From Candidatus Yanofskybacteria bacterium RIFCSPHIGHO2_01_FULL_44_22 (lineage in GTDB: Bacteria > Patescibacteriota > Minisyncoccia > 2-02-FULL-40-12 > GWA2-44-9), in contig MGJJ01000019.1 of assembly GCA_001794205.1 (NCBI GenBank), forward strand, positions 1,353 through 65,352: DNA of 64,000 nucleotides, read 5' to 3'. The translations under genes and the position numbers were made by a program. The stretch's first letter is position 1. Each line of letters opens with the position of its first letter. Below, piece after piece: positions 1,248-39,420 of this stretch. Below the pieces are notes generated by a model. It had not been told where the DNA came from. It saw only the letters and a program-made list of their open reading frames with translations, and did not search any database.

Positions 1248-1291
1248 TTTCTTTGTTTTTCGGTACCCCAACAATTTAACGAAAGTGTTTT

Positions 1292-1748: not shown

Positions 1749-3074
1749 CTACTTCCCCGATTGCTGAAGAGCGATGCGGGCGGTTTTAAGGGCGATGCCC
1801 AAATCCAAAAACAACGAACGATTCTTGATGTAGTAAAGGTCGTATTGGAGTTTTTCGGCGGCATCCTTGACCGACGAGCCATAGCGGAAATTTATCTGGG
1901 CCCAGCCGGACAAGCCCGGCTTTATCAGATACCTCTCTTCATAAAAAGGAATTTCTTTTTTAAGGATTTCGTGGAATTCCGGCCTCTCGGCCCGGGGACC
2001 GACAAATGACATTTCCCCTTTGATTATATTCCAAAGCTGGGGCAGTTCATCGAGCCGCGTTTTTCTTAAAAATCCGCCGACCCGGGTGGCTCGCGGGTCG
2101 TTATCCGCCGCCCAAACAGCGCCGGTAAGTTGTTCCGCGTCTTGCCGCATGGTACGGAATTTCAGCATTTCAAACGTTTTGCCGATTTGCCCGATTCTTT
2201 TTTGTTTGTAAAAAACCGGACCCCTTGAATTAAGCTTGACGGCGAGAATTAAAAACGGATAAAAGACCAGAGAAATCGTTCCCAAAATTGCGGCAAAAAC
2301 CGCGTCCATAAATCTCTTGGCCGTTTCATATGCCATCTTGTTGCCCTCGCTTAAATTTTCCAAAAACCAAACTTGGTCAATTGCTCCGAGAGGCACCCTT
2401 CCGGTAAGCCGCTCGTAAAAAGACGCCAAACTATAAAATGTTATTTTCTGCCCCAGGGATTTGTAAAAGATATTTATTATTTCCGGTGATTGATACGCTT
2501 CCGGCCCGATGACCACCGTATTGATTTTATCCTGCAAAATCAGCCGTTCCAATTCGCCGGTTCTTATTTTTTCCACATCCACAACCTGTTTTAAATCGTA
2601 TCCAAGCTGGGGGTTGTCTTTGATAAATTGAGCCAGCTCGGAGGTCTGTTGGTTGTCGCTTGCAATCAGGGTCGGCCTTTTAAACTTTTTTTCGGCAATC
2701 CCGTTAAAAAGGCGGCGGTTGCCCAATTCCAATAAAGTGAAAATCGCAATGAGGAGAACCAGATTTGTTTTGGGGGTTATTCCAAGAAAAGGAATCAGGT
2801 AGAAAAAAAACACCGAAATGCTTCCGGCAATGGTTATGGAGCGAAAAAAAACCGAATAAAATTGGGCGTTATTGCGGAAATGCCTCGGTTCGTAGAGGCC
2901 GGCTATATAAAATACCAGAAGCCAGACGGTAAAAATTATACTGAAAGAGACCAAATGAAGATTCAGCCAATAACCGAACTTTTCATCATAGTCGCGATAT
3001 CTTATCGCCAAAGTAACAAGAAGAGCGGCATAAAAAACTATAATATCTAAAATAAAAAGAGTAATTTTGCGCAT
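1749..3074 (-). CDS. Undecaprenyl-phosphate sugar phosphotransferase (WbaP/exopolysaccharide polyprenyl glycosylphosphotransferase family)
   Basis: N-terminal transmembrane helices. The C-terminal bacterial sugar transferase domain carries conserved stretches (ILAVKLNSRGPVFYKQKRIG, DELPQLWNIIKGEMSFVGPRAERPEF, IKPGLSGWAQI). Confidence 0.85.
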   Translation of the reverse strand: MRKITLFILDIIVFYAALLVTLAIRYRDYDEKFGYWLNLHLVSFSIIFTVWLLVFYIAGLYEPRHFRNNAQFYSVFFRSITIAGSISVFFFYLIPFLGITPKTNLVLLIAIFTLLELGNRRLFNGIAEKKFKRPTLIASDNQQTSELAQFIKDNPQLGYDLKQVVDVEKIRTGELERLILQDKINTVVIGPEAYQSPEIINIFYKSLGQKITFYSLASFYERLTGRVPLGAIDQVWFLENLSEGNKMAYETAKRFMDAVFAAILGTISLVFYPFLILAVKLNSRGPVFYKQKRIGQIGKTFEMLKFRTMRQDAEQLTGAVWAADNDPRATRVGGFLRKTRLDELPQLWNIIKGEMSFVGPRAERPEFHEILKKEIPFYEERYLIKPGLSGWAQINFRYGSSVKDAAEKLQYDLYYIKNRSLFLDLGIALKTARIALQQSGK

Positions 3075-3193
3075 TTATTTAATTGTGCATTATTCGTGAA
3101 TAATTGTCAAATGTTGACTTTTGTGTTGTAAAATTATAAACTGGCGCTACTTACCATCATAATATATTATTATTTATCAGTCATAAACTAAAA

Positions 3194-4186
3194 ATGACCG
3201 AGAAAACAAATAAAATCAAAATTGGCATAATTGGCTTGGGAATGGTCGGTGAACCTTTGCGAAAATGGTTTGAGGAAATTAACGGCTGTAAAAGAGGCAG
3301 AGACTTGTTTTGTTATGATATAGCCCCCCAAAAAGGTTATTTTGACGATGTAAACAGGGCCGATGTTATTTTTGTAGCCGTACCGACGCCCTCAAACCTG
3401 GACGGAAGCTGTAATTTGTCTTTTGTTAAAAACGCAGTCGGGAAAATTAAAAACGGAAAAATTGTGGTGATAAAATCAACTGTTGCTCCCGGCACGGTGG
3501 AAGAACTTCAAAAAAAATATCCCCAAAAGAGGTTCATTTTTAATCCCGAATTTTTGACCGAAACCCAGGCGTGGGAAGATTTTATTTCTCCCGACCGGCA
3601 AATTATCGGCTCTACGGCAAAAAGCGCGACTGACTCCGTTGAAATTTTAAATCTTTTGCCGAAGAAAAATTTTATCCGGCCGTGGACCTCCGATTATGTG
3701 AAAAAATCAGTCAACGCCACCGAAGCGGAATTGGGCAAGTACGCTTCCAATGTGTTTGGATTTATTAAAGTTATCTACGGCAATATTTTGGCCGATACCT
3801 GTTATGCGGTAAATCAAAAATATAAAAAGGAAAAAATAAATTCAGAAGTCCGATACGATAATTTAAAAGAACTTATCGGCGCCGATTTGCGTATCGGTCC
3901 GGCTTGGCTTGATGTGGAACACGGCAATTATTGCGGGGCCGGCGGTTATTGTTTTCCCAAAGACATGAATGCTTTTATTTCTTTTGCCGGCGAACTTGCC
4001 GAAAAGCTGGAAAAGAGAAAGTTCGATAAAGAATTTCTCAAAGTTTTTAAAAAGGGGATTGCCGTTTTGCAAACGATACGCGATTACAACAAAGAATTGT
4101 TAAAACATCAGGGTTTGACCGCGGAAGAAGTTTCAAGGCACAATAAGGAAATAATCACGGAAAAAAGAAAAAAGATACGAATATGA
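3194..4186 (+). CDS. UDP-glucose/GDP-mannose dehydrogenase family protein (short form)
   Basis: N-terminal Rossmann motif (KIGIIGLGMVG). The NPEFLTE...DFISPDRQIIG stretch and the GGYCFPKD catalytic Cys motif are present. The protein is shorter than canonical Ugd, so the C-terminal UDP-binding domain is reduced or absent. Confidence 0.7.
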   Translation: MTEKTNKIKIGIIGLGMVGEPLRKWFEEINGCKRGRDLFCYDIAPQKGYFDDVNRADVIFVAVPTPSNLDGSCNLSFVKNAVGKIKNGKIVVIKSTVAPGTVEELQKKYPQKRFIFNPEFLTETQAWEDFISPDRQIIGSTAKSATDSVEILNLLPKKNFIRPWTSDYVKKSVNATEAELGKYASNVFGFIKVIYGNILADTCYAVNQKYKKEKINSEVRYDNLKELIGADLRIGPAWLDVEHGNYCGAGGYCFPKDMNAFISFAGELAEKLEKRKFDKEFLKVFKKGIAVLQTIRDYNKELLKHQGLTAEEVSRHNKEIITEKRKKIRI

Positions 4187-5085
4187 AAATCGTAGTTACC
4201 GGCGGAGCGGGGTTTATCGGTTCTCATCTCGTAGATGCTCTCGTTGAGCGAGGGTTTAAGGTTCATGTAATTGACAATCTTTCCGGCGGGAAAAAAGAAA
4301 ATGTGAACAAGAAAGCCGTTCTCCATATCGCCGACATCCGCAATCTCAAAGAAATTAAACCTATCATCAGGGGCGCCGATTATGTTTTTCATCTTGCCGC
4401 CTTGCCGCGCGTTCAATATTCCATAGAAAATCCAGAAGAAACCCACGATGTAAATGTCAGCGGCACATTGAACGTTCTTTTGGCGGCTAAGGACGGCGGT
4501 GTCAAAAGAGTTATTTATTCCGCTTCAAGTTCGGCTTACGGCGACCAAAAAAGAATGCCCTTACTTGAAAATATGCCCGCCGCTCCTAAAAGTCCCTACG
4601 GTCTCCAAAAATATATCGGAGAATTATATTGCAGGCTTTTTTCGGAGGTTTACGGCCTGCCAACCGTTTCTTTGCGCTATTTCAATGTTTACGGTCCGAG
4701 ATTCAATCCCGAAGGGCCGTATGCTTTGGTAATCGGCAAGTTTATCCTCCAGCGCAAATTGGGCCAGCCGTTAACGATTACGGGCGACGGCAAACAGACC
4801 CGCGATTTTACTCATGTTTCCGATGTGGTGCTGGCGAATCTGTTGGCGATGGAAAGTAAAAAAGTCGGCCATGGTGAAGTGATGAATATAGGCGCTGGAA
4901 GCAACACCACAATCAACAAGTTGGCAAAATTAATCGGCGGTCAAAGTAAGCACATTGCGTTCCGCCTTGAACCCAAAAATACTCTTGCCGGCACCTCGTT
5001 GGCTTTTAAATTGTTGGGGTGGAAACCGCAAATTAAAACCGAAAACGGCATAAAACAACTTCTTCGCGAAGAGGGCCTGATATGA
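4183..5085 (+). CDS. NAD-dependent epimerase/dehydratase (UDP-sugar 4-epimerase-like)
   Basis: MKIVVTGGAGFIGSHLVDAL Rossmann start. YxxxK-type short-chain dehydrogenase/reductase (SDR) core (SPYGLQKYIGE). The ATGA start overlaps the upstream stop. Confidence 0.85.
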   Translation: MKIVVTGGAGFIGSHLVDALVERGFKVHVIDNLSGGKKENVNKKAVLHIADIRNLKEIKPIIRGADYVFHLAALPRVQYSIENPEETHDVNVSGTLNVLLAAKDGGVKRVIYSASSSAYGDQKRMPLLENMPAAPKSPYGLQKYIGELYCRLFSEVYGLPTVSLRYFNVYGPRFNPEGPYALVIGKFILQRKLGQPLTITGDGKQTRDFTHVSDVVLANLLAMESKKVGHGEVMNIGAGSNTTINKLAKLIGGQSKHIAFRLEPKNTLAGTSLAFKLLGWKPQIKTENGIKQLLREEGLI

Positions 5086-5098
5086 TATAATGGTCTGA

Positions 5099-6790
5099 AT
5101 GTTGTTGCGTCACAAAAAAATCAGAATATTTATCGGAGCGGCAATATTTTTGGCGGCTCTTTTTTTGTCGGCAAACATTCAAGTTTTGCCTGCGCAGGCG
5201 GGCGATATTCTCGGCCAAAATAAGAATTTTTTCGTGAACTCCGAATACGACAAATTCAATCGGACGCAAATTTCAGCCACATTGGCGGCCGTTTCGGAAC
5301 AAGCCTATTTTTTCATCGAGGATATTTATTGGAATGGTTTAAGTTTTGAGCGAAAAGAGGCCCTGATTTCCAACATTGCCCCTCTTGCCGGCGCGTTTGA
5401 TAATGACATTTATCCAAAAGAAAGGGAATTTTGGGGGTCGGAACCGAACCCAGGGGTGGATGGCGACTCCAAAATTACGATTGTCGTGGAACAATTGGTA
5501 AGCGGCAACGGTGGGTATTTTGATACTCTGAACGGTTATGACGCCCCCGAATCCAACAAAAGAGAAATGTTCTTCGTGAGCGCCGCCGCCGTGCAGGATA
5601 ACCTCCGAAACGCCAAAATATTTTTGGCCCACGAATTTCAGCATCTTGTTTCTTTTAACCAGAAAGATATTATGCGGAATATTTCCGAGGATGTGTGGCT
5701 GAACGAATTGCGCTCGGAATATTCAGTCACCATAGCGGGTTTTAATGAGCCTTATGCCGGTTCCGGTCTTGAAAGACGAGCTGAACTTTTCATGTCGCAG
5801 CCGTCAGACAGCCTGACGGAATGGCCCAACTCTTCGCTTGATTATGCCCAAGCGGCTTTGTTCGGAGAATATCTGGTGGAGCAATATGGGTCGGAAATAT
5901 TAAAAGATACTTTGCGCAGTTCCGCTGCGGGCATTGTTTCCATCAATCAGTTTTTGGCGGATAAAAATTATAAAGAACGGTTTGGCGACGTGTTCGGTAA
6001 TTGGGCAATTGCCAATTATTTGAACAGCGCCTCGGTCGATAAAAAATACGCCTACACCTTATCGGGTCTTCAAAGAGTAAAAGTAAATCCGGCCAGCAAC
6101 GTTTATTTGTCGGGCGCTTCGTATAATTTTTATGAAACCTTAAAGCCTTGGCAGGCGAACTGGCATAAATTCAACGTTGCCTCGTCGATTATGGATTCTA
6201 AAGCAATCAAAATTGATTTTGCCGCCGGTGCGCCGTTTAAGTTTTATTATGTCGATAATTTGGGACGGACGGGCGCCTTGGCTAATCCGGCTTATATTGA
6301 CGACCCCGGCGGACTGGCTGATTTTACGCTTATTCCCGTCAACCAAAGCAAAACATCTGACTTTAGTAAAAATGAACAAGCGGCGCCGATTACTTTCAGT
6401 ATTAATTTTGTGGAAAGCGGTTTGGGCCGTCGGCTGTCGATTATTGAGAACGGCTCTCTGATTAAAAAACCGAGAGAGGGTGAATTGTATGTGATTGAAG
6501 GAAAATATAAAAGATACTTAAGCGCCGGTGCGCTTGCATCATACGGCCATCTTGACCCGACCAAGGCTATCGAGGTTGACGAAGGAACGCTCAATTCTTA
6601 CACAACCGCGAATTATGTTCGCGCGCTGAACGACAAAAAAGTTTATGCGGTGTGGCCCGACGGGACTAAACACTGGCTTAACATGAGCGGCGAATATTTT
6701 ACTCAATCCGGCCGCGATTGGGGCTCCATTTTTACGATTAACGACGCCGAATTTCAGTTTTACAAAACCGGCCCGGATATTGTAAAATGA
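5099..6790 (+). CDS. Secreted hypothetical protein with HExxH motif (possible zincin-like metallopeptidase)
   Basis: N-terminal signal-like hydrophobic segment (IRIFIGAAIFLAALFLSANI). A single HEFQH motif follows a hydrophobic stretch (KIFLAHEFQHLV). I could not place it in a family. Confidence 0.5.
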   Translation: MLLRHKKIRIFIGAAIFLAALFLSANIQVLPAQAGDILGQNKNFFVNSEYDKFNRTQISATLAAVSEQAYFFIEDIYWNGLSFERKEALISNIAPLAGAFDNDIYPKEREFWGSEPNPGVDGDSKITIVVEQLVSGNGGYFDTLNGYDAPESNKREMFFVSAAAVQDNLRNAKIFLAHEFQHLVSFNQKDIMRNISEDVWLNELRSEYSVTIAGFNEPYAGSGLERRAELFMSQPSDSLTEWPNSSLDYAQAALFGEYLVEQYGSEILKDTLRSSAAGIVSINQFLADKNYKERFGDVFGNWAIANYLNSASVDKKYAYTLSGLQRVKVNPASNVYLSGASYNFYETLKPWQANWHKFNVASSIMDSKAIKIDFAAGAPFKFYYVDNLGRTGALANPAYIDDPGGLADFTLIPVNQSKTSDFSKNEQAAPITFSINFVESGLGRRLSIIENGSLIKKPREGELYVIEGKYKRYLSAGALASYGHLDPTKAIEVDEGTLNSYTTANYVRALNDKKVYAVWPDGTKHWLNMSGEYFTQSGRDWGSIFTINDAEFQFYKTGPDIVK

Positions 6791-6797
6791 TTACACT

Positions 6798-7124
6798 ATG
6801 CGATTAATTATTTCTGCCAAAAACATTGCTTTGGACGATGCCCTAAATGTGTTTATTCGTGAAAAAATAGGGAATTTGGATAAGGTAATCGGAAATGACA
6901 AATCCGAGGCCAAGGTTGAAATAGGCAAACCGTCCCGCCATCATCGCAGCGGGCCGGTGTTTTACGCCGAAGTGAATCTGCGACTTGGCGGCAATCTTCT
7001 GCGCGCCTCCTGCTCACATGAAGATTTGCGCAACGCCATTGTCGACGTGAAAGACGAGCTTCAGGCGCAGATAAAGAAATTTAAAGAAAAAAGAAAAGAT
7101 GCAGCCAGACAGCCTAAGAAATAA
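6798..7124 (+). CDS. hpf: Ribosome hibernation promoting factor / RaiA (YfiA/HPF family, short form)
   Basis: MRLIISAKNIALDDALNVFIREKIGNLDKV... is typical of the sigma-54 modulation protein/HPF family. Size is ~108 aa. Confidence 0.8.
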   Translation: MRLIISAKNIALDDALNVFIREKIGNLDKVIGNDKSEAKVEIGKPSRHHRSGPVFYAEVNLRLGGNLLRASCSHEDLRNAIVDVKDELQAQIKKFKEKRKDAARQPKK

Positions 7125-7127
7125 TTG

Positions 7128-7150
7128 CGAGGGGCTTGCCCCTCGTTTTT
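7128..7150 (+). terminator. Rho-independent terminator after hpf (cgagggg-cttg-cccctcg followed by TTTTT)
   Basis: A 7-bp GC stem plus U-tract was read from the sequence. It overlaps the first, probably unused, part of the long secA ORF. Confidence 0.7.
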
Positions 7151-7154
7151 ACTT

Positions 7155-9920
7155 ATGAATTTTCTAAGCAAAATATTTGGAGACGCCAATGAGAGATATA
7201 TCAAATCGCTTCAGCCGATTGTCGTTCGAATAAACGGACTTGAGAAAGATTTTGAAAAACTTTCCGGCGAAGAACTAAAAAATAAAACGGCGGAATTTCG
7301 CAAACAATTAGCGGACGGCAAAACTCTTGACGCTCTCTTGCCCGAAGCGTTTGCGGCCGTCCGCGAGGCGTCAAAGCGTACGCTGAATCAGCGCCATTTT
7401 GACGTCCAACTGTTCGGCGGAATCGTCCTGCATCAAGGCAAAATTGCCGAAATGAAAACCGGCGAAGGCAAAACCCTTGTGGCGACGCTCCCGGCTTACC
7501 TGAATGCTATTACCGGCAAGGGTGTCCATATTGTTACAGTGAACGATTATCTTTCTCGTCGCGACGCCGTTTGGATGGGTCAGATTTACCACGCTCTCGG
7601 TTTGTCGGTGGGTTGTATCAACCACGATTCCAGTTTTTTATACGACCCCCGGCACAGCGAGAAAATACATGAATTGGAAAATAATAAATCCGACGCGCCT
7701 GTTCCAAGCCCCGAATCGGAAGAAGCGCTGTTGGACAAAGAAAGAGATTTGGCCGGCTCCTTTCACGTCGTTCACGAATTTTTAAGACCGGCAACGAGGA
7801 GAGACGCTTATGAGGCAGACATTACTTATGGCACCAACAACGAATACGGTTTTGATTATTTAAGGGACAATATGGCCTATGAATTGGCGGGCATAAGTCA
7901 ATCAAAGGGCCACCATTTTGCCATCGTTGACGAAGTTGATTCCATCCTTATTGACGAGGCTCGCACGCCCTTGATTATTTCGGCGCCGGACACGGAATCA
8001 ACCAAAATGTACGAGACATTTGCCAAAGTTGTGCCGAGATTGGTTGAAAATGACGATTATAATATTGATGAAAAATTAAAAGCTGTCTCAATTACCGAAA
8101 ACGGGATTGAAAAAGTGGAAAAAATGCTTGGCTTGAAAAATATTTACGAAGAAGGAGGCGTCAGAAACGTCCATCATTTGGAGCAAGCTCTAAAGGCGGA
8201 AATTTTATTCAAACGCGACAGGGATTACGTCGTAAAAGATGGAGAGGTGGTTATTGTGGATGAGTTTACCGGCCGGTTGATGCCCGGCCGGCGCTGGTCG
8301 GAAGGCCTTCATCAGGCGGTTGAAGCCAAAGAGGGGGTAAAAATAGAAAGAGAATCCCGCACTCTTGCCACCATTACTTTTCAGAATTATTTCCGCTTGT
8401 ACGATAAATTGGCGGGCATGACCGGAACCGCCCGGACTTCGGCCGAAGAGTTTCACAAAGTTTATAATCTCGGCGTGGTGGAAGTTCCCACGAATAAATT
8501 GATGATAAGAAAAAACGCGCCCGACAGGATTTATAAAACCGAGACCGGAAAATTTCGCGCCATTGTCAGGGAAATAAAAGAACGGCACGAAAAAGGCCAA
8601 CCGGTTCTTGTCGGCACCGTGTCAATAGAGAAAAACGAATTGCTTTCAGCTCTTTTGGGCCGTGAGGGGGTTCCTCATAATATTTTAAACGCGAAAAACC
8701 ACGAGAAAGAAGCTGAATTTATCGCCCAAGCCGGAAGATTATATTCGGTAACGGTGGCGACTAACATGGCCGGCCGGGGCGTGGATATAATTCTTGGAGG
8801 CACTCCTCCTGATGCTGGCGAGGCCAAAAAGGTTCGTGAAGCCGGAGGTCTGCATGTCATCGGCACCGAACGCCACGAGGCCAGGCGGATAGACGACCAG
8901 TTGCGCGGACGCGCCGGCCGGCAGGGCGACCCGGGTTCGTCCCAGTTTTTCATTTCAACCGAAGATGATTTGGCAAGAATATTCGGCGGAGACCGTTTGA
9001 AAAGAATTATGGAAACCTTGGGGGTAGGCGAGGACGATGTTATAGAAAACAGATTTGTTTCCAATGCCATTGGTCAGGCCCAGTCGCGGATTGAAGGCCA
9101 CAATTTTGATATTCGCAAATATGTCTTGGAATACGACGATGTAATGAACAAGCATCGCGAGGCGATTTACCGTCTGCGCAAAGATGTTTTATCGTCGGTG
9201 GGCAATAAAGAAAAAATATTGGAATATTTGGATAAACAGATTGAAAATATAGTAAATTTCCACACCCAAGGACAGGAGTATCAGTGGAACGTGGAAGAAA
9301 TCGCTGAATCGGTTAAAGCGCTGTCTGGTCTTGAATTGCATTCCGAACTTGTTGAAATCGCGAAAACCGGCAGTTCGGAAAAAGTGGGCGAATATCTCAA
9401 AACTCAAATTTCAAAACTTTATGAAGCAAAAGAGAAAGAACTTAACGCGGAAAATATGCGTCCCGAACGAAGCCGCGAGGGCACGCAGCGTGCTTCTGCT
9501 TCGTACGGGATGCGTCAGCTTGAGAAACTAGTTTTATTGAGAACGATTGACGAGTTGTGGATGGACCACATTGACGCGATGGAATATATGCGCGACTCGG
9601 TGCGTTTGAGGGCTTATGGCCAGAGGGACCCGCTGGTTGAATATAAAACAGAAGGCCACAAGATGTTTCAGCAATTAACCGGCGCGATTGAAGCGGAAGT
9701 GGCGAATTTGATATTCAAAGTCGGATTTTTTAATAAGCCCAAACAGGTAAAAACAGAAGAAGGCCGTCCAAATATAATTTCCGGCGAAGAAAACATGATT
9801 GAACAAGAATCCAGATTAAACTTAGACCAGCAACCGGTAGAAACTGAATCTAAAATCGGCAGAAATGAACTTTGTCCCTGTGGGTCGGGGAAGAAATATA
9901 AAAGGTGTCATGGGAAGTGA
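7155..9920 (+). CDS. secA: Preprotein translocase ATPase SecA
   Basis: Canonical SecA N-terminus (MNFLSKIFGDANERYIK). DEAD-like motor motifs (MKTGEGKTLVATLPAYLNA, IVDEVDSILIDEARTPLIIS). C-terminal zinc-binding tail (CPCGSGKKYKRCHG). The ATG at 7155 was chosen because the upstream ORF start overlaps the hpf terminator. Confidence 0.95.
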   Translation: MNFLSKIFGDANERYIKSLQPIVVRINGLEKDFEKLSGEELKNKTAEFRKQLADGKTLDALLPEAFAAVREASKRTLNQRHFDVQLFGGIVLHQGKIAEMKTGEGKTLVATLPAYLNAITGKGVHIVTVNDYLSRRDAVWMGQIYHALGLSVGCINHDSSFLYDPRHSEKIHELENNKSDAPVPSPESEEALLDKERDLAGSFHVVHEFLRPATRRDAYEADITYGTNNEYGFDYLRDNMAYELAGISQSKGHHFAIVDEVDSILIDEARTPLIISAPDTESTKMYETFAKVVPRLVENDDYNIDEKLKAVSITENGIEKVEKMLGLKNIYEEGGVRNVHHLEQALKAEILFKRDRDYVVKDGEVVIVDEFTGRLMPGRRWSEGLHQAVEAKEGVKIERESRTLATITFQNYFRLYDKLAGMTGTARTSAEEFHKVYNLGVVEVPTNKLMIRKNAPDRIYKTETGKFRAIVREIKERHEKGQPVLVGTVSIEKNELLSALLGREGVPHNILNAKNHEKEAEFIAQAGRLYSVTVATNMAGRGVDIILGGTPPDAGEAKKVREAGGLHVIGTERHEARRIDDQLRGRAGRQGDPGSSQFFISTEDDLARIFGGDRLKRIMETLGVGEDDVIENRFVSNAIGQAQSRIEGHNFDIRKYVLEYDDVMNKHREAIYRLRKDVLSSVGNKEKILEYLDKQIENIVNFHTQGQEYQWNVEEIAESVKALSGLELHSELVEIAKTGSSEKVGEYLKTQISKLYEAKEKELNAENMRPERSREGTQRASASYGMRQLEKLVLLRTIDELWMDHIDAMEYMRDSVRLRAYGQRDPLVEYKTEGHKMFQQLTGAIEAEVANLIFKVGFFNKPKQVKTEEGRPNIISGEENMIEQESRLNLDQQPVETESKIGRNELCPCGSGKKYKRCHGK
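9462..9509. mobile_element. 48-nt palindromic mini-element (MITE-like) inserted in-frame in secA, flanked by 6-bp direct repeat ATGCGT (9456-9461 and 9510-9515)
   Basis: Element cccgaacgaag...cttcgtacggg has an inner hairpin gcacgcagcgtgc. A near-identical copy lies in ruvA (27385-27432). It encodes PERSREGTQRASASYG inside an otherwise conserved SecA segment (NAENMR|QLEKLVLLRTIDELW). Confidence 0.6.
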
Positions 9921-9942
9921 AAAATGAAAAAGCCCCGACCAA

Positions 9943-10341
9943 TTATGGGGCGGAGCGTTGGAGAGTTTGTGCGCACTTTGAGCACTTCAATCTTTTTCCC
10001 TTGAGAAAAAGCTTCAATTTGCGAAGAACCTCCTGGAAGTGATTGTACGAATATTGCGGCTGCGTTTTAAAATATGCTCTCCAGATTGCTAAAGTAATTT
10101 GTTCAATCTGTCTCGGATAAAGATAAAATGAAAATCTTTCTTTCCGGCCGCCAGTGTGCGATTCTTTGACGGAAAACTTTAGATAGCAACCTCCGTCGCG
10201 CGCAAGTCCTTTTATTGCTACCATGTCTTCAGGTACATTCAAGTCAATGGAATCGTCCGGTTCAAACCAGTGAAATACAATCTGCCGGCCGACAAGGCTT
10301 TCTCTTGCACAATTATTTTTACGATTTAACTGTTTGGCCAC
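9943..10341 (-). CDS. Hypothetical protein (132 aa), divergent from the nuclease cluster
   Basis: GTG start preceded by a strong SD (agaggagggg). Terminator hairpin gcccc-ataattggtc-ggggc plus TTTTT lies at the 3' end on the minus strand. No recognisable domain. Confidence 0.5.
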   Translation of the reverse strand: MAKQLNRKNNCARESLVGRQIVFHWFEPDDSIDLNVPEDMVAIKGLARDGGCYLKFSVKESHTGGRKERFSFYLYPRQIEQITLAIWRAYFKTQPQYSYNHFQEVLRKLKLFLKGKRLKCSKCAQTLQRSAP

Positions 10342-10554
10342 GAACCCCTCCTCTTATAAAGAACTTCATAGGACCTTGCTTGCGGTAATGGTAACAAACT
10401 ATTGTTTTTTAAGCAATATCATCAACGGCGCCGTGGAATATTTTTCTTTTGGGACGGGCGAGAAAAGCGAAAAGATTGCATCCGCTTGCGTCTGTTGAAC
10501 AAGGGGCAGGGGGGCGGAATGCTTTTAATTTTTATTTTGTTAGGTTAAGATTAA

Positions 10555-11283
10555 TTGAACATGACAGCAAAAATCCAAAACACGATAAAAATATCCAGAA
10601 GTGGACTAAAATTATTTCTTGATTGCCCGAGGTGTTTTTGGCTGGATGTCCATCACAAGATAAAACGCCCGCCGGGATATCCGTATACTTTATCGGCGGC
10701 GGTGGATTATTTGGTGAAACAGGAATTTGACAAATATCGGGTGGACGGCAAGCTGCCGCCTGTTTTTGCGAAAGAAGAACTGGACGCAAAATTATTTTCC
10801 GGAGACAAACTGGCGGATTGGAGAAATAATTTTCGGGGCGTTTCATATTTTGATGAAAACCTGAACGCAATATTGTACGGCGCCGTTGATGATGTGCTTG
10901 AATTTTCCGACGGCTCTTTGGCGGTAGTTGATTATAAATCATCCGGTTCAAAAGAGATAACAATTTACGACGATTACCAAAAACAGATGGAGATTTATTC
11001 CTGGTTGTTGCAGAGAAACGGCTATCAAACCCAGCCCCACGCGTATTTTGTTTTTTATGTCGTCCAGAAAGACGGCGGCGGGTTTACCAATGTTTTGCCG
11101 TTCAGGGAAGAATTAAGGCGTGTTGACGTTAAACCTGATTGGGTCGGCGATACATTTGAAAGAGCGATAGAAACCGCGCGCCAGGAAACTGCGCCGGTAA
11201 ATTCCGACCATTGTGACCACTGTCATTATGTTGACCGGGTGGTAGAAGTTAGAGGGGCGATTCCTTGGGATAGCAATATTTAA
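10555..11283 (+). CDS. Cas4-like PD-(D/E)XK nuclease (RecB-family exonuclease fold with putative Fe-S Cys ligands)
   Basis: N-terminal Cys pair (CPRCFW). DxK motif (VVDYKSSGS). QxxxY-like motif (MEIYSWLL). C-terminal CDHCHY cysteines. This is the arrangement typical of Cas4/DUF83-type nucleases. Confidence 0.65.
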   Translation: MNMTAKIQNTIKISRSGLKLFLDCPRCFWLDVHHKIKRPPGYPYTLSAAVDYLVKQEFDKYRVDGKLPPVFAKEELDAKLFSGDKLADWRNNFRGVSYFDENLNAILYGAVDDVLEFSDGSLAVVDYKSSGSKEITIYDDYQKQMEIYSWLLQRNGYQTQPHAYFVFYVVQKDGGGFTNVLPFREELRRVDVKPDWVGDTFERAIETARQETAPVNSDHCDHCHYVDRVVEVRGAIPWDSNI

Positions 11284-11380
11284 AAACTCGAACTTTCACT
11301 ACCCGGTTGAAATGGCTTCCCAGCACAAAATTACGCCAGATTTAAACATTTAATTTTCCCCGTTTGTTCCATTCAACTCT

Positions 11381-11424
11381 TTTTCTATTATTTACCGTTC
11401 GTACGAACGGTAAATAATAGAAAA
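11381..11424. repeat. 44-nt perfect palindrome ttttctattatttaccgttc-gtac-gaacggtaaataatagaaaa (bidirectional terminator and/or operator)
   Basis: Read directly. It is flanked by T-run and A-run and shares arms (CTATTATTT) and core (TTCGTACGAA) with the palindrome at 12034-12088. Confidence 0.75.
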
Positions 11425-11495
11425 AGCGGAAGCGACTGTTCAAATATTCTGACATTCAAACAATGCTTGCGGAAACAATAAATGTTTAAAAATTC

Positions 11496-12029
11496 ATGAA
11501 AGAAAAATTTATTATTCAATTTTTAGAAGAATTGGTAAGTGCGCTTGGGGAGTTGAGTCGTTCTTTGAGCAGGATTTCTTATAAGGGATTCAGGTATAGC
11601 GATTTTAATACGAACTTGCTTGACCATGGTAAACGATACTCCGGTTTTAAAAATCTGGAACGGCGCGGCATTATAAGAAGAAAAAACGGCGATGAGTTTA
11701 TTTTTACAAAAAACGGGCAAAAGTGGTTTCAAGAATCGCATGCGCGATATTTTAAAAACAAAAACAACGGAAAATGGGACGGCAAGTGGCGAGTTGTGAT
11801 TTTTGACATTCCCCAAGAATTACACAAACAAAGAATAAAATTTCGGACAAAATTATTGAGCTTAGGCTTCAGCGCGTTGCAAAAGAGCGTTTTTGTTTTT
11901 CCTTATCCATGCGATAAGGAATTGGGGGACATATGTGAAAAGCTTGGTATAACTGATTATGTTGACAGGATTGTTGCCGAATCGATTGGTTTCTGCGAAT
12001 CGGGATTTCTTAAAAAATTTGGTTTATAG
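11496..12029 (+). CDS. PaaX-family-like transcriptional regulator (wHTH plus PaaX-type middle domain)
   Basis: WDGKWRVVIFDIPQELHKQRIKFRTKLLSLGFSALQKSVFVF resembles the PaaX WDGKW...GFG region. The N-terminal part is winged-helix-like. Confidence 0.6.
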   Translation: MKEKFIIQFLEELVSALGELSRSLSRISYKGFRYSDFNTNLLDHGKRYSGFKNLERRGIIRRKNGDEFIFTKNGQKWFQESHARYFKNKNNGKWDGKWRVVIFDIPQELHKQRIKFRTKLLSLGFSALQKSVFVFPYPCDKELGDICEKLGITDYVDRIVAESIGFCESGFLKKFGL

Positions 12030-12033
12030 CGTA

Positions 12034-12088
12034 ACACAATGTCCTATTATTTCTCTTTCGTACGAAAGAGAAATAATAGGACATTGTG
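12034..12088. repeat. 55-nt perfect palindrome cacaatgtcctattatttctctttcgtacgaaagagaaataataggacattgtg
   Basis: Read directly. Related to the 11381-11424 palindrome. It lies between the PaaX-like gene and the downstream nuclease gene. Confidence 0.75.
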
Positions 12089-12196
12089 GACAAAATGGCC
12101 AACAGCAGCAGAATCTTTACTCTGCATAAGGCCACACACGGCATAAGGCCGCACACACTCCTTTTTTAATTTAATACACCTGTTATTATTACTTGC

Positions 12197-13639
12197 ATGA
12201 ATCAAAAACCCAAAATCACCGCCGAGCATTTTTATAAATTTTTCCAGTGTCCGCACTGGATTTGGTATGACATTTACGGCGACGCCAAACAAAAAAAACA
12301 CACCCCGCCCCTTTTGGATATTATTTACAAAGGCAAAGTGTCCGAAGCTGAAAAAATTCTAAGCCAGCGCAAACAATTTGAACAGGTAAGGCCGGAGCTG
12401 ATGCGCGACATAGAGGAAGGTTTTTTGGCAACGCTTGAGCTGATGAAACAGGGCAAGAATATCTATCACGGCGTTTTGATGAATGAGGACTGGGTGGGAA
12501 TGCCGGATTTATTGGAAGCCAGACCGGGCAAGTCGGATTTGGGCGCTTGGCATTATGTCGTTTATGACGTTCAGCAGTCGCTTGAATTGCGGGATGAATT
12601 TCGTTTCCAGCTTGTTTTTTACAGCCTGATACTGGAACGGATACAAGGCGTGCGCCCGAGCCACGCTTATATCATAGACCCCGAAGGCAACGAGCGGGCC
12701 TTTTTAATTGACGATTATGTGGAGCAATTCCATCTGTCTCTTGCCCAGATTGAAAAAATTCTGGAAGGCGAAAAACCACTGCCGTTTTTGAAGAGCGGCT
12801 GTCGGCGTACTCCCTGGTATTCTCTTTGCGTTTCCGAAACGGAAGGCTGCAGCGACGTGTCGCTGGTTTACCGCTTGAGCCAGGCGGACCAACGCCACCT
12901 TTACGATATCGGCATAAAAACTATTTTTAATTTGGCTGAGGCCGATGTCAATGATTTAAGGATAAAACTCGAAGATTGGCCGTTCGACAAAATCGTGCGA
13001 TTAAACAATCAGGCCAAAGTGCTTGTTTCGCGGGAACCGCTTATATTAAAAAAGGGCGAATTTCCGTCCGTTAAGAATGAAATATATTTTGACATTGAGA
13101 GCGACCCGACCAGAGACATAGATTATCTGCTTGGTATTTTGGTCAAATCCGGTGGCAAGGGAAACGGTGAGTATCATTATTTTCTAGCCCACAACAAAGA
13201 GGAGGAACCGGAAATGTGGAAAAAGTTTCTGGATTTTCTCGCCGAACTCGACGACTTCGTTATCTATCATTACGCGTTTTACGAGAGGCGGGTTTTTGAC
13301 CGCTTGGCATCTCGCTATGGCGCTCCGGAAAGCTTGGTCGCCAAGTTTAGGGAGAATACGATTGATATCCACTTGAAACTGGTTGAATCGGCGGTTTTGC
13401 CCCTGTATTTTTACAGCCTCAAAGACGCGGCCAAATATTTGGGCTATCAATGGAACGACCCGGAAGCCGGCGGCGCCGAGTCGGTAGTTTGGTATAATGA
13501 TTGGTTGGACAAACACAATAACGCCGTTTTGAAAAAAATTCTCAAATACAACGAAGACGACGTCAGGGCGACTCTGCGTATTAAAGAATGGCTGGAAACG
13601 CAGGCGCCCAAAAAATCCAGAGAAAAATTGGAAGAATAA
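12197..13639 (+). CDS. TM0106-type putative nuclease: N-terminal Cas4-like PD-(D/E)XK domain fused to C-terminal RNase H-like (YprB-type) domain
   Basis: N-terminal FFQCPHWIWYD plus later Cys cluster (CRRTPWYSLC...C). The C-terminal segment has RNase H-like exonuclease signatures (EIYFDIESDP..., YHYAFYERR). Architecture is inferred. Confidence 0.6.
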   Translation: MNQKPKITAEHFYKFFQCPHWIWYDIYGDAKQKKHTPPLLDIIYKGKVSEAEKILSQRKQFEQVRPELMRDIEEGFLATLELMKQGKNIYHGVLMNEDWVGMPDLLEARPGKSDLGAWHYVVYDVQQSLELRDEFRFQLVFYSLILERIQGVRPSHAYIIDPEGNERAFLIDDYVEQFHLSLAQIEKILEGEKPLPFLKSGCRRTPWYSLCVSETEGCSDVSLVYRLSQADQRHLYDIGIKTIFNLAEADVNDLRIKLEDWPFDKIVRLNNQAKVLVSREPLILKKGEFPSVKNEIYFDIESDPTRDIDYLLGILVKSGGKGNGEYHYFLAHNKEEEPEMWKKFLDFLAELDDFVIYHYAFYERRVFDRLASRYGAPESLVAKFRENTIDIHLKLVESAVLPLYFYSLKDAAKYLGYQWNDPEAGGAESVVWYNDWLDKHNNAVLKKILKYNEDDVRATLRIKEWLETQAPKKSREKLEE

Positions 13640-13712
13640 TATTTTAAAAAAATAAAAATCGCCCAAGGTTCGGCCCCTTGAACATATTTTCAGGCGTGTT
13701 ATCATCTCGACA

Positions 13713-15029
13713 ATGATAAATTCCCGGTTGCTAATCGGAATAATAATCATATCTCTTTTTCTTTTCGGTTTTGTTTTTCCCCAGGCCGTAAACAAGGGGG
13801 CCGATTTCGTTAATGGCAAAACGTCCCTCGGTTTGCCCCATTTTTGGAATATGCCGTTCCGTTTCGGTCTCGATTTGCTTGGCGGAACGCATCTTTTGTA
13901 CCAGGCCGACCTTTCGGCCATCGAGCAAAAATCAGAAGCCATGCAGGGGATACGGGATGTGATAGAACGAAGGGTGAATTTTTTCGGCGTGGCCGAACCG
14001 GTTGTCCAAATCCAGGGAGACGACCGCTTGGCGGTCGAATTGGCCGGCATAAAAAACGTCAATCAGGCAATCCGGCTTATCGGCGAGACGCCGTTCCTGG
14101 AATTCAAAGAAGAAAAGCCCGATACCCAGGCGATTCTGGAGGCCCAACAGAAAGGAGAACGGCTGAACGAGGAACCTTTTCAAAACACCGGTTTAAACGG
14201 CCGCCATTTGGCCAAAGCCCAGCTTGTTTTTGACCCCCAGACTTACGCGCCGGAAGTCAGTCTTGATTTGAATGAAGAAGGGGCTAAGCTGTTCGCGGAA
14301 CTGACCAAAAGAAACCTGAATAAAATCATAGCCATCTATCTTGACGGCCTTCCGATTTCAACGCCGGTTGTCCAATCGGAAATTCCCAACGGAAAGGCGA
14401 TTATCTCTGGCAAGTTTACTCCGGCGGAAGCCAAACTCCTTGCCACTCGCCTGAATTCCGGCGCCCTGCCGGTGCCGATAAAATTAATAAGTCAGCAGAC
14501 TATCGGCGCTTCGCTCGGAGCCGCTTCTCTGACCAAAAGCCTTAAGGCCGGCGTTTGGGGTTTGATTTTGGTCGGCGCGTTCATGATTTTTTTCTATCGT
14601 CTGCCCGGAATTGTTTCGGTGATTGCCCTCATTGTCTATGTGTTGATAGTTTTGACGATTTATAAATTGGTACCCGTCACGCTTACTCTGGCCGGCATTG
14701 CCGGTTTCATTTTGTCTTTGGGCATGGCCGTTGACGCCAATGTTCTGATTTTCGCCCGCATGCGGGAAGAGCTGAAGGCCGGGAAAAGTCTTAACCAGGC
14801 GACCCACGAAGGATTTTCCAGAGCTTGGCTCTCAATCCGCGACAGCCACATTACGACTTTCATCGGCGCCCTGGTTTTGTATTTGTTCACCACCTCAATC
14901 GTAAAAGGATTTGCTCTCACTTTGGGCATAGGCGTTCTTACCAGCCTGTTGACTGCCACGGTGGTAACGAGAAACTTTTTAAATTTGTTCATCGGGCAGA
15001 GATTCGAAAAAATAAGAAGGCTATTTTAG
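13713..15029 (+). CDS. secD: Protein translocase subunit SecD
   Basis: LGLDLLGGTHLLYQADLS periplasmic start and a C-terminal 6-TM bundle (GIAGFILSLGMAVDANVLIFARMREE). Confidence 0.9.
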   Translation: MINSRLLIGIIIISLFLFGFVFPQAVNKGADFVNGKTSLGLPHFWNMPFRFGLDLLGGTHLLYQADLSAIEQKSEAMQGIRDVIERRVNFFGVAEPVVQIQGDDRLAVELAGIKNVNQAIRLIGETPFLEFKEEKPDTQAILEAQQKGERLNEEPFQNTGLNGRHLAKAQLVFDPQTYAPEVSLDLNEEGAKLFAELTKRNLNKIIAIYLDGLPISTPVVQSEIPNGKAIISGKFTPAEAKLLATRLNSGALPVPIKLISQQTIGASLGAASLTKSLKAGVWGLILVGAFMIFFYRLPGIVSVIALIVYVLIVLTIYKLVPVTLTLAGIAGFILSLGMAVDANVLIFARMREELKAGKSLNQATHEGFSRAWLSIRDSHITTFIGALVLYLFTTSIVKGFALTLGIGVLTSLLTATVVTRNFLNLFIGQRFEKIRRLF

Positions 15030-39317: not shown

Positions 39318-39420
39318 CCGCTTCGCTTTGCCTCCTCCTGCATTTTCCATGCTTCGAAGCATCCTACAACCTCCTCCGCGCTTCGGAGCGCCGTCTTTTT
39401 TCAATCTGCTCGGCCGTTTA

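What the first reader, a model, noticed from the sequence alone, without database searches (positions are those of the whole stretch)
9943..13639. Nuclease cluster: stand-alone Cas4-like nuclease, PaaX-like regulator and TM0106-type (Cas4-like plus RNase H-like) nuclease, with a divergent small gene, no CRISPR array and no Cas1
Three consecutive + strand genes encode the following:
- A 242-aa PD-(D/E)XK protein with Cas4-type cysteines (N-terminal C..C, C-terminal CDHCHY) and a DYK motif.
- A 177-aa PaaX-like wHTH regulator (WDGKW...GFSALQ).
- A 480-aa fusion of a second Cas4-like domain with an RNase H-like exonuclease domain (TM0106 architecture).

A 132-aa unknown protein with its own strong SD and terminator is transcribed divergently. 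The unit is inserted between secA and secD and is bracketed by long perfect palindromes. Two Cas4-family nucleases plus a dedicated regulator look like a compact nucleic-acid processing or defence module rather than housekeeping repair. Two further points are inference: the regulator's middle domain also superficially resembles the Cas2 beta-strand/basic-helix pattern, and the TM0106 architecture is itself assigned by inference.
Basis: partly seen in the sequence, partly recalled or inferred. Interest (0 to 1): 0.65.

Follow-up and report, generated by a model that had tools for sequence, protein, structure and literature searches.

The report
Nuclease pair split by self-bracketed regulator
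Two repair-type nuclease genes that normally sit side by side in these tiny bacteria are separated here by a small DNA-binding gene flanked on both sides by copies of what is probably its own binding site, an arrangement that recurs in most of 76 relatives of that gene checked and appears undescribed.

Summary
The four ORFs and their domain assignments are real. They are not one four-gene module and not an insertion between secA and secD.

- **Nuclease pair.** The 242-aa PD-(D/E)XK nuclease and the 480-aa TM0106-family nuclease are a conserved, syntenic Parcubacteria gene pair upstream of secDF. They are often adjacent or overlapping. Nothing marks them as defence genes.
- **ORFan.** The 132-aa gene has a single database hit, from the same species.
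- **PaaX-like gene.** The 177-aa gene is not a dedicated regulator of the nucleases. It has a winged helix plus a Cas2-fold domain with an invariant Cas2-type FDIP motif. It is one of several unrelated inserts found between the two nuclease genes.
- **Palindromes.** The two long perfect palindromes (11379-11426 and 12035-12088) bracket only this gene and share a 36-nt core.
- **Family pattern.** The protein family is large (about 6,000 clusters at 50% identity). All 80 genome hits are uncultivated-bacterium MAGs, nearly all labelled CPR/Patescibacteria, and there are several diverged paralogues per genome. In 55 of 76 loci, cognate dyad-symmetric sites flank the gene on both sides.

Best reading: a PaaX-like dimeric repressor cassette bound by its own product at both ends. 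A selfish or mobile cassette with Cas2-like nuclease activity is not excluded.

The parts
9943..10341 (-). p132: 132-aa ORFan with a GGAGGGG Shine-Dalgarno sequence. It shares a short hairpin terminator with secA. It is not part of any conserved unit.
   Evidence: ORF. Searches found no family. One search found one homologue, 99% identical. Searches show it is absent from L001, L003, L006, L007 and L029. The secA-to-p242 gap is 45 nt in L006.
10555..11283 (+). p242: stand-alone PD-(D/E)XK nuclease of the RecB/Cas4-like superfamily, with CxxC...CxxC cysteines. It is a core Parcubacteria gene and the upstream partner of TM0106. The true start is probably ATG 10561.
   Evidence: PDDEXK_1, 53.5 bits; Cas_Cas4 13.1 bits, below the 22.7 cut-off.. 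(430 homologues; the best 120 are at least 63% identical). (invariant motifs). (synteny).
11379..11426 (.). U site: 48-nt perfect zero-loop palindrome 70 nt upstream of p177. The 36-nt core at 11385-11420 reads CTATTATTT-ACCG-TTCGTACGAA-CGGT-AAATAATAG. It contains promoter-like hexamers on both strands.
   Evidence: (the TCGTACGA centre is specific to this clade's U and D sites). (the centre and the outer AT-rich half-sites are the only conserved intergenic block).
11496..12029 (+). [quoted passage not shown] It has an invariant WDxKWR...FDIP...R...Q.S motif and no PaaX C-terminal effector domain.
   Evidence: (AF2 mean pLDDT 79; best PDB matches are PaaX 8a39 and Rv0674 3kfw, then Cas2 structures).. 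(F103, D104, P106 and S131 conserved in 82 of 82 sequences). (family size).
12035..12088 (.). D site: 54-nt perfect zero-loop palindrome starting 5 nt after the p177 stop codon. The core at 12044-12079 is 83% identical to the U core, and the differences are mirrored in both arms.
   Evidence: (D sites lie 0-20 nt after, or overlapping, the stop codon in most relatives). In L006 the D site stays with p177, not with TM0106, which starts 1.9 kb further on.
12197..13639 (+). p480: TM0106 / COG2251-family protein. The N-terminal Cas4-like PD-(D/E)XK domain has 1+3 cysteines and motif III reading D-V-Q. The C-terminal RNase H-like domain has FDIESD and YNEDD motifs of the 3'-5' exonuclease type.
   Evidence: TIGR03491, 338 bits, full length. 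(RNase_H_2). (motif conservation). (literature: uncharacterised, predicted 3'-5' exonuclease plus DUF83).

Best explanation
The region holds three separate things.

**(1) A resident nuclease gene pair.** p242 is a PD-(D/E)XK nuclease. p480 is a TM0106-family protein that joins a Cas4-like nuclease domain to a DEDD-type 3'-5' exonuclease domain. Together they form a vertically inherited Parcubacteria gene pair in housekeeping synteny upstream of secDF. Its role is most likely DNA-end processing or repair (inferred).

**(2) A self-contained cassette inserted between them.** It consists of a gene for a wHTH plus Cas2-fold, PaaX-like protein, flanked on both sides by copies of its cognate site. 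Each site is roughly 36-54 bp and dyad-symmetric, with AT-rich outer half-sites, a spacer, the centre TCGTACGA, a spacer, and the mirrored outer half-site.

The proposed mechanism is inferred, not shown:
- The protein dimerises through its Cas2-like domain, as PaaX does.
- Each winged helix reads one outer half-site, and the dimer body lies over the centre.
- Binding at the upstream site, which overlaps promoter-like hexamers, represses the gene's own transcription.
- Binding at the downstream site, at the stop codon, blocks read-through or insulates the neighbouring genes.
- This is the same logic as E. coli PaaX binding TGATTC-N27-GAATCA and repressing its own promoter.

**(3) p132** is a species-specific ORFan.
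For: **Nuclease pair**
- TM0106 follows p242 in L003, L006, L029, L081-L086 and L087. The two genes overlap by 4 nt in L084 and are 13 nt apart in L081.
- p242 lies upstream of TM0106 in 47 of 61 metagenome loci.
- p242 is highly conserved.

**Cassette: the sites belong to p177**
- The two longest palindromes in the window flank p177 only and share a 36-nt core found nowhere else in the 64 kb.
- The six p242-TM0106 loci that lack a PaaX-like gene contain no long palindrome in about 70 kb.
- Perfect zero-loop palindromes with arms of at least 13 nt are about 100-fold enriched beside family genes: 39 in about 29 kb against 13 in about 1 Mb.
- A pair of palindromes in L060 correctly predicted a second, divergent paralogue between them.

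**Cassette: upstream and downstream sites are cognate**
- Half-site identity is 0.73 within a locus and 0.39 between loci.
- In 55 of 76 loci the upstream-downstream match exceeds the 99th percentile of between-locus controls.
- TCGTACGA occurs 18 times in about 1 Mb. Fourteen of those are the upstream and downstream sites of the 7 clade members, with both sites present in 7 of 7.
- The pattern was replicated in 8 of 8 independent metagenome cassettes.

**DNA-level, protein-type recognition**
- Symmetry runs through the centre with no loop.
- In orthologous alignments only the centre and the outer half-sites are conserved, while the spacers vary and are sometimes asymmetric.
- The centre type tracks the protein clade.

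**Protein**
- PaaX_M domain. The predicted fold best matches PaaX, then Cas2.
- PaaX binds a long dyad site and autorepresses (PMC9493321).

**Insertion**
- Presence and absence of the cassette interleave on the p242 tree.
- The L029 cassette comes from a distant protein clade.
Against: - No binding, transcript or expression data exist. The promoter calls are consensus matches only.
- A simple autorepressor does not need a second site at its stop codon.
- It also does not need perfect symmetry over 40-60 bp, including positions that are not conserved.
- The Cas2-type Asp (FDIP) is invariant in 82 of 82 family members but absent from E. coli PaaX. This hints at a catalytic or metal-binding role that the repressor model leaves unexplained.
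- Where sites are asymmetric, the upstream and downstream copies are mostly in direct orientation (23 direct, 6 inverted). A symmetric dimer model does not predict this.
- The repair role of the nuclease pair is inference from domain content and conservation only.
- Motif III of the TM0106 nuclease domain reads D-x-Q in most homologues.
Confidence: 0.55

Rival explanations
1. Selfish or mobile cassette. The unit [site - gene - site] would be an autonomous element whose product recognises both boundaries through its winged helix. Its Cas2-type metal-binding Asp would nick or cut at the palindrome centres, allowing excision, insertion or gene conversion. This is compatible with autoregulation.
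For: - There are several paralogues per genome, in unrelated housekeeping contexts.
- The cassette is inserted inside an otherwise adjacent or overlapping gene pair and between tRNA-Thr and tRNA-Tyr in L013.
- 8 of 23 tRNAs lie within about 310 nt of a cassette.
- At least two independent cassette lineages occupy the same p242/TM0106 gap, and presence is patchy on the p242 tree.
- Boundaries are marked by cognate repeats, mostly direct where they are asymmetric.
- The FDIP Asp is invariant.
Against: - Paralogues within a genome are only 40-71% identical, so there are no recent copies.
- The cassette at this locus has been inherited vertically while diverging.
- None was found in IMG/VR viral contigs, and there is no PHROG match.
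- No recombinase is encoded, and no empty site with a solo cognate palindrome was seen.
- Repeat orientation is not uniform.
- Insertion boundaries cannot be mapped to the palindromes, because the flanking intergenic DNA also differs.
Confidence: 0.2
2. The palindromes act as RNA hairpins and are not recognised by p177. They would serve as terminators, RNase III processing sites or mRNA-stabilising stems that cut the inserted gene's mRNA out of a polycistronic transcript.
For: - The hairpins are very stable (-30 and -39 kcal/mol; z = -8.9 and -12.3).
- The D site follows the stop codon within 0-20 nt in most loci.
- Some arms end in A and T runs.
- Stems of at least 20 bp would be RNase III substrates (general knowledge).
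Against: - The symmetry includes the central 4-6 nt, which would form the loop and so need not be self-complementary. Nearly all family-type sites have zero loop.
- Many family members have imperfect stems but still conserve the centre and the outer half-sites.
- Upstream and downstream sites share sequence, and the centre type tracks the protein clade.
- Most sites lack a T-run.
- Canonical GC-rich terminators exist separately in the same genomes.
- No Rfam family matches above threshold.
Confidence: 0.12
3. One reading: the four genes form one compact nucleic-acid-processing or defence module, in which the PaaX-like protein is the dedicated regulator of the two Cas4-like nucleases.
For: - The order p242 - PaaX-like - TM0106 recurs in L001, L003, L006, L007, L029 and L087 and in 11 metagenome loci.
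- The D site lies 109 nt upstream of TM0106 and carries promoter-like hexamers, so local control of TM0106 in this lineage is possible.
Against: - p132 is an ORFan.
- 36 of 47 loci with the pair lack the PaaX-like gene.
- The other family members examined have unrelated neighbours.
- In L006 the D site stays with p177, 1.9 kb from TM0106.
- PADLOC detects no defence system.
- The region is core housekeeping synteny with high conservation.
Confidence: 0.08

Closest known systems
PaaX, the phenylacetyl-CoA-responsive repressor of E. coli and Pseudomonas (PDB 8a39, 3l09; Pfam PF07848, PF20803, PF08223)
   Same: - N-terminal winged helix followed by the Cas2-like middle (dimerisation) domain.
- Best fold match.
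- PaaX binds a long dyad site (TGATTC-N27-GAATCA) and represses its own promoter (PMC9493321). This is comparable to the 36-nt shared core found here.
   Different: - No C-terminal effector-binding domain, and no paa genes nearby.
- TIGR02277 scores 33 bits against a cut-off of 265.
- It retains the Cas2-type FDIP Asp that E. coli PaaX lacks.
- Sites lie on both sides of the gene and are often perfect palindromes of 30-60 bp.
- The family is expanded to several paralogues per genome in CPR bacteria.
Cas2 (CRISPR adaptation protein; TIGR01573, PF09827)
   Same: - Ferredoxin-like fold and the beta1 motif (I/V)xFD(I/L)P ... R ... G ... Q.SV(F/Y).
- Some homologues are even named Cas2 by PGAP.
   Different: - No cas1, no CRISPR-like array in the window, and none within 8 kb in the 80 related loci.
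- The match covers only about 37 residues.
- It is fused to a DNA-binding winged helix.
- The flanking repeats are two dyad-symmetric sites around the gene, not an array.
TM0106 / COG2251 family (TIGR03491)
   Same: p480 is a full-length member: a Cas4-like (DUF83) nuclease domain plus a PF13482 RNase H-like exonuclease domain.
   Different: - Nothing architectural differs.
- New here is the conserved partnership with a stand-alone PD-(D/E)XK gene upstream of secDF in Parcubacteria, and the D-x-Q variant of motif III.
Cas4 / AddB-type Fe-S PD-(D/E)XK nucleases
   Same: - p242 and the N-terminal domain of p480 share the RecB-like motifs D...(D/E)xK...QxxxY.
- Both have four cysteines split between the N- and C-termini.
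   Different: - p242 fails the Cas4 models: 13.1 bits against a cut-off of 22.7, and 30.2 against 65.
- It has a 2+2 CxxC...CxxC arrangement.
- There is no CRISPR context and no helicase partner.
REP/RAYT and IS200/IS605-type elements (a gene flanked by palindromic sequences recognised by its own product)
   Same: A single gene bracketed by cognate palindromes. The family is multi-copy and intergenic.
   Different: - No HUH/Y1 transposase domain.
- The palindromes are not dispersed as solo copies in the sequence available.
- Paralogues are old and diverged.
- Each paralogue has its own private site sequence.

Membership tests
TM0106 family (TIGR03491) | Full-length match above the curated cut-off | tested here: met
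   338.4 bits against a cut-off of 97.45. Residues 7-466 match profile positions 1-462 of 462.
TM0106 family (TIGR03491) | Cas4-like PD-(D/E)XK N-terminal domain plus RNase H-like (PF13482) C-terminal domain | tested here: met
   RNase_H_2 at 4.8e-34 over residues 296-466. Cas4 models give a sub-threshold hit over residues 85-212. Motif III reads D-V-Q rather than D/E-x-K.
Cas4 (PF01930 / TIGR00372), tested for p242 | Score above the family cut-off | tested here: not met
   PF01930: 13.1 bits against 22.7. TIGR00372: 30.2 bits against 65. p242 belongs to the broader PDDEXK_1 family at 53.5 bits.
Cas4 (PF01930 / TIGR00372), tested for p242 | Association with cas1, cas2 or a CRISPR array | tested here: not met
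   No array in the window, and no Cas1 match in PADLOC. The neighbours are sec genes.
Cas4 (PF01930 / TIGR00372), tested for p242 | Cysteine pattern of one N-terminal Cys plus a C-terminal CxxCxxxxxC (pattern recalled from memory) | tested here: not met
   p242 has CPRC near the N-terminus and C(D/x)HC near the C-terminus. This 2+2 arrangement is invariant in 14 homologues.
PaaX (TIGR02277), tested for p177 | Equivalog-level score and three-domain architecture (PaaX N-terminal, PaaX_M, PaaX_C) | tested here: not met
   33.1 bits against a cut-off of 264.55. Only PaaX_M is detected (78 bits). The protein is 177 aa, compared with about 300 aa for PaaX, and has no C-terminal domain.
PaaX (TIGR02277), tested for p177 | Linkage to paa catabolic genes | tested here: not met
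   Neighbours in the window and in 80 loci are unrelated housekeeping genes.
PaaX-like superfamily (wHTH plus PF20803) | PaaX_M domain above cut-off, and a fold similar to PaaX structures | tested here: met
   PF20803 at 78.3 bits against a cut-off of 24. Foldseek top hits are 8a39 and 3kfw, with marginal E-values of 1e-3 to 4e-3.
PaaX-like superfamily (wHTH plus PF20803) | Sequence-specific binding to a dyad-symmetric operator | not testable with these tools
   Only indirect support is available: cognate dyad sites flank the gene.
Cas2 (TIGR01573 / PF09827), tested for p177 | Score above cut-off over the whole domain | tested here: inconclusive
   TIGR01573: 26 bits against 24.5, which passes, but over residues 98-134 only. 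PF09827: 22.8 bits against 23.8, which fails.
Cas2 (TIGR01573 / PF09827), tested for p177 | Encoded next to cas1 and a CRISPR array | tested here: not met
   No CRISPR-like array in the window or within 8 kb in 80 loci.
Known anti-phage defence systems (PADLOC-DB 2.0) | A complete set of system components | tested here: not met
   Only isolated Cas4, Cas2 and DruK-like domain hits were found.
Transposon-like element with terminal repeats | Recent identical copies, a consistent repeat orientation, and a transposase or recombinase | tested here: not met
   Paralogues are 40-71% identical. Orientation is mixed: 23 direct, 6 inverted, 26 palindromic. No recombinase domain was found.

The most novel reading that the evidence does not exclude
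The wHTH-Cas2-fold genes bracketed by cognate palindromes could be a previously unrecognised class of self-recognising genetic cassette in CPR bacteria. In this reading the Cas2-type active site, with its invariant FDIP Asp, acts on the flanking palindromes by nicking, excision or conversion. That would make them a free-living relative of the CRISPR adaptation protein Cas2 that works on palindromic repeats without Cas1.
Probability: 0.12. Interest if true: 0.85.

Novelty: new variant of a known kind. Interest (0 to 1): 0.5.

Why it matters
**Annotation.** Homologues of this small protein are variously labelled 'Cas2' or 'PaaX repressor' in CPR genomes. They are neither CRISPR-associated nor linked to phenylacetate catabolism.

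**Regulation and element biology.** This may be a major expanded DNA-binding family in organisms with very few known regulators (about 6,000 clusters at 50% identity). Each gene carries its probable recognition site on both flanks. That gives dozens of protein-site pairs for studying how specificity evolves. It also describes a compact, self-insulating cassette that can sit inside operons and tRNA clusters.

**Cas2 evolution.** It is a Cas2-fold domain with the catalytic-type Asp intact, fused to a DNA reader and tied to palindromic repeats.

**DNA repair.** The p242-TM0106 pair is a candidate minimal DNA-end-processing system in Parcubacteria, and it gives the uncharacterised TM0106 family a conserved partner.

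Tried and rejected
- **Rfam.** A permissive scan of 9800-13800 gave only sub-threshold matches to miRNA-precursor hairpin models at the palindromes.
- **PADLOC and PHROGs.** No defence system was found. p177 and p132 have no phage family. p242 matches an unknown-function phage family.
- **Viral contigs.** An IMG/VR scan for p177 relatives found none.
- **CRISPR arrays.** None in the window or in 80 loci.
- **Other long palindromes in the window.** The one at 39420-39463 lies beside a gene that is not PaaX-like. The one at 29902-29947 lies inside a Mur ligase gene.
- **'Perfect palindromy is the essential feature'.** Rejected. Many family members have imperfect or asymmetric sites that keep the centre and the outer half-sites.
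- **'The D site is the TM0106 operator'.** Rejected as a general statement. In L006 the D site stays with p177, 1.9 kb from TM0106, and the downstream neighbours of other paralogues are on either strand and unrelated.
- **Recent transposition.** Rejected, because within-genome paralogues are only 40-71% identical.
- **Literature.** Searches for PaaX together with Cas2, CPR or palindromes found nothing relevant.
- **Same-species contig L087.** It is nearly identical to the window, so it was uninformative about how the sites evolve.
- **Promoter assignment.** This was not pursued beyond consensus matches.

Full report
**1. What is at the coordinates**

All four ORFs exist as described.

- **p242 (10555-11283).** It matches PDDEXK_1 (4.4e-14) but falls below the Cas4 cut-offs: PF01930 gives 13.1 bits against 22.7, and TIGR00372 gives 30.2 against 65. 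The motifs GAVDD, VVDYK and QMEIY and the cysteines CPRC...C(D)HC are invariant in 14 homologues.
- **p177 (11496-12029).** It matches Pfam PaaX_M, whose own name is 'PaaX protein central Cas2-like domain' (4.8e-22). It just passes the NCBIfam Cas2 cut-off, 26 bits against 24.5, over residues 98-134 only. It fails the PaaX equivalog model, 33 bits against 265.
- **p480 (12197-13639).** It is a full-length TM0106 / TIGR03491 protein (338 bits against a cut-off of 97) with an RNase_H_2 C-terminal domain. The literature describes this family (COG2251) as uncharacterised: a predicted 3'-5' exonuclease domain joined to a DUF83/Cas4-like domain (PMC3985635).
- **p132 (9943-10341, minus strand).** It matches no family in Pfam, NCBIfam, PADLOC or PHROGs. 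A search of 5.8 billion proteins found one homologue, 99% identical.

The organism is a Parcubacteria / Candidatus Yanofskybacteria-like CPR bacterium, judged from the source names of the homologues.

**2. The palindromes belong to the PaaX-like gene, not to the unit**

A scan of the whole window for perfect palindromes found only five with arms of at least 13 nt. The two longest are 11379-11426 (48 nt) and 12035-12088 (54 nt). They lie 70 nt upstream of the p177 start and 5 nt downstream of its stop.

The two palindromes share a 36-nt core, CTATTATTT-NNNN-TTCGTACGAA-NNNN-AAATAATAG. The core occurs nowhere else in the 64 kb, even when 3 mismatches are allowed. The differences between the two copies are mirrored in both arms.

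**3. The nuclease pair is resident and conserved; the other two genes are add-ons**

Related Yanofskybacteria contigs keep the order unk563 - HPF - SecA - p242 - p177 - TM0106 - SecD - SecF - sigma - DUF8128. None of them contains p132. The SecA-to-p242 gap is 45 nt in L006, about 1 kb in L001 and about 3 kb in L007.

I fetched six further Parcubacteria loci through p242 homologues. In all six a TM0106 gene follows p242 and secDF comes after it. None has a PaaX-like gene.

| Locus | Arrangement between p242 and TM0106 |
|---|---|
| L084 | genes overlap by 4 nt |
| L081 | 13 nt gap |
| L083, L086 | about 100-120 nt gap |
| L082 | one unrelated gene (His_Phos_1) |
| L085 | one unrelated gene (unknown function) |

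I then fetched 80 metagenome loci through TM0106. Of these, 61 had enough upstream sequence to judge.

| Arrangement upstream of TM0106 | Loci (of 61) |
|---|---|
| p242 within 4 kb | 47 |
| of which p242 adjacent | 18 |
| of which a PaaX-like cassette lies between | 11 |
| of which other inserts lie between | 18 |
| no p242 within the upstream flank | 14 |

The other inserts are heterogeneous: His_Phos_1, a PI3/4-kinase-like protein, an aldehyde dehydrogenase, a ParB-like protein, an HNH repeat protein and unknowns.

p242 is at least 63% identical across its 120 best homologues. PADLOC reports only isolated Cas4/Cas2-type domain matches. This supports a conserved housekeeping-type pair with an insertion hot spot between its genes, and it argues against a defence island. 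A role in DNA-end processing is inference from the domains: two RecB/Cas4-like nuclease domains and a DEDD-type exonuclease domain with FDIESD and YNEDD motifs. One caveat is that motif III of the TM0106 nuclease domain reads D-x-Q in 9 of 11 homologues.

**4. The PaaX-like gene is one member of a large CPR family, and each gene is bracketed by its own sites**

*Family size and distribution*
- A profile of the family finds 6,037 clusters at 50% identity with E of 1e-3 or better, and 3,351 with E of 1e-10 or better. Typical length is 170-230 aa.
The 80 loci kept are all MAGs, nearly all labelled CPR/Patescibacteria, often with several loci per genome.
- Paralogues within a genome are only 40-71% identical.
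- Their neighbours are unrelated housekeeping genes, including DnaE, DnaJ, RecA, CTP synthase, FtsW, aminoacyl-tRNA synthetases, MreB, GyrB and ribosomal proteins.
- No locus has a CRISPR-like array within 8 kb. None of the family was found in viral contigs.

*Flanking sites*
- Perfect zero-loop palindromes with arms of at least 13 nt are about 100-fold enriched next to these genes: 39 in about 29 kb against 13 in about 1 Mb.
- One of the 'elsewhere' pairs, in L060, turned out to bracket a second, divergent paralogue.
- The six p242-TM0106 loci without the gene contain no such palindrome.
- Upstream and downstream sites are cognate. Half-site identity is 0.73 within a locus and 0.39 between loci.
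- In 55 of 76 loci the upstream-downstream match exceeds the 99th percentile of between-locus controls. Several of the 21 below threshold are scoring or start-codon artefacts.
- In the window's clade the centre TCGTACGA occurs 18 times in about 1 Mb. Fourteen of those are the upstream and downstream sites of the seven clade members.
- Eight of eight independent metagenome cassettes show the same arrangement.

**5. Anatomy of the site, and what it says about mechanism**

Alignment of the orthologous intergenic regions shows one conserved block. It consists of the 8-bp centre and AT-rich outer half-sites (GTTAT or TTATAA types) 9-15 nt from the centre. The spacers vary and are sometimes asymmetric. 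Perfect palindromy is therefore frequent but not essential.

- The symmetry includes the central bases. In an RNA hairpin these would form the loop and would not need to pair, which argues for DNA-level dyad recognition rather than RNA structure.
- The centre type follows the protein clade.
- The downstream site lies 0-20 nt after the stop codon, or overlaps it. The upstream site lies 5-110 nt before the start codon and overlaps promoter-like hexamers.

The AF2 model has a mean pLDDT of 79. Its best matches among solved structures are E. coli PaaX (8a39) and Rv0674, followed by Cas2 structures, with marginal E-values.

E. coli PaaX binds TGATTC-N27-GAATCA and represses its own promoter. Its middle domain is the dimerisation motif (PMC9493321). 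The simplest reading is therefore a PaaX-like dimer that covers about 36-50 bp at each end of its own gene. It would repress initiation at the upstream site and block or insulate transcription at the downstream site.

**6. What this model does not explain**

- The Cas2-type motif F-D-I-P is invariant in 82 of 82 family members, whereas E. coli PaaX lacks the Asp.
- Symmetry is often perfect over 40-60 bp, including positions that are not conserved. Self-correction of long quasi-palindromes by template switching could account for this (general knowledge, not tested). Contigs L088/L089 and L090 encode an identical copy of the protein (P0003), yet the upstream palindrome has a one-base mismatch in L088/L089 and is perfect in L090.
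- Where sites are asymmetric, the upstream and downstream copies are mostly in direct orientation (23 direct, 6 inverted).
- Cassettes sit inside otherwise tight gene pairs and next to tRNA genes. 8 of 23 tRNAs lie within about 310 nt, and in L013 the cassette lies exactly between tRNA-Thr and tRNA-Tyr.
- On neighbour-joining trees without support values, cassette presence is patchy on the p242 tree. The L029 cassette at the same site comes from a distant protein clade with a different centre.

These points keep a selfish or mobile-cassette reading alive. It is weakened by the absence of recent copies, of a recombinase and of solo sites.

**7. Verdict**

The nucleases are members of known families. 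The new points are their conserved pairing in Parcubacteria and, above all, the self-bracketed wHTH-Cas2-fold cassette family. I found no literature on that family.

Noticed in passing
window 39420-39463: A 44-nt perfect zero-loop palindrome (AGGATAAACAAGGGATTTCTTGCAAGAAATCCCTTGTTTATCCT) lies in the gap after ORF 38769-39317. That ORF has only a weak NMD3-like hit and is not PaaX-like. Its function is unknown.
   Followed up: partly
window 29902-29947: A hairpin with 20-bp arms and a 6-nt loop lies inside the Mur-ligase ORF 28859-30163.
   Followed up: no
window 10418-10442 and 10869-10893: The intergenic segment upstream of p242 is a 92% reverse-complement copy of 25 nt inside p242, the part coding for the catalytic GAVDD motif. 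It is present in the same-species contig L087 and absent from L001. It may be a rearrangement scar or a cis-antisense element.
   Followed up: partly
window 12119-12152: A tandem 17-nt repeat (ACTCTGCATAAGGCCAC / ACACGGCATAAGGCCGC) lies between the D site and the TM0106 start.
   Followed up: no
window 12560-12575 (p480 residues about 122-127) and homologues in L003, L006, L029, L081-L087: Motif III of the TM0106 N-terminal nuclease domain reads D-x-Q instead of (D/E)-x-K in 9 of 11 Parcubacteria homologues. The nuclease domain may be catalytically atypical.
   Followed up: partly
L011, L013, L017, L021, L053, L054, L055: PaaX-like cassettes lie within about 310 nt of tRNA genes far more often than expected: 8 of 23 tRNAs fall in about 5% of the sequence. 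In L013 the cassette sits between tRNA-Thr (3513-3587) and tRNA-Tyr (4267-4353).
   Followed up: partly
L084 7966-10164: A restriction-modification set (DNA methylase, R.HinP1I-like enzyme, Vsr) is inserted between TM0106 and secD. This shows that the region downstream of the pair is also an insertion site.
   Followed up: no
P0019, P0040, P0044, P0070 (homologues of p177): NCBI annotation names these proteins 'CRISPR-associated endonuclease Cas2', although no CRISPR array lies within 8 kb of any of the 80 family loci checked. The likely cause is a systematic misannotation arising from the low TIGR01573 cut-off.
   Followed up: yes
L019 (about 3983-8469) and L037 (about 1043-8597): Other PaaX-like paralogues lie within multi-gene insertions between unk563 and HPF (L019) and between HPF and SecA (L037). 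Both gene pairs are adjacent in the window: HPF begins 8 nt after unk563 ends, and SecA follows HPF with no gap.
   Followed up: no
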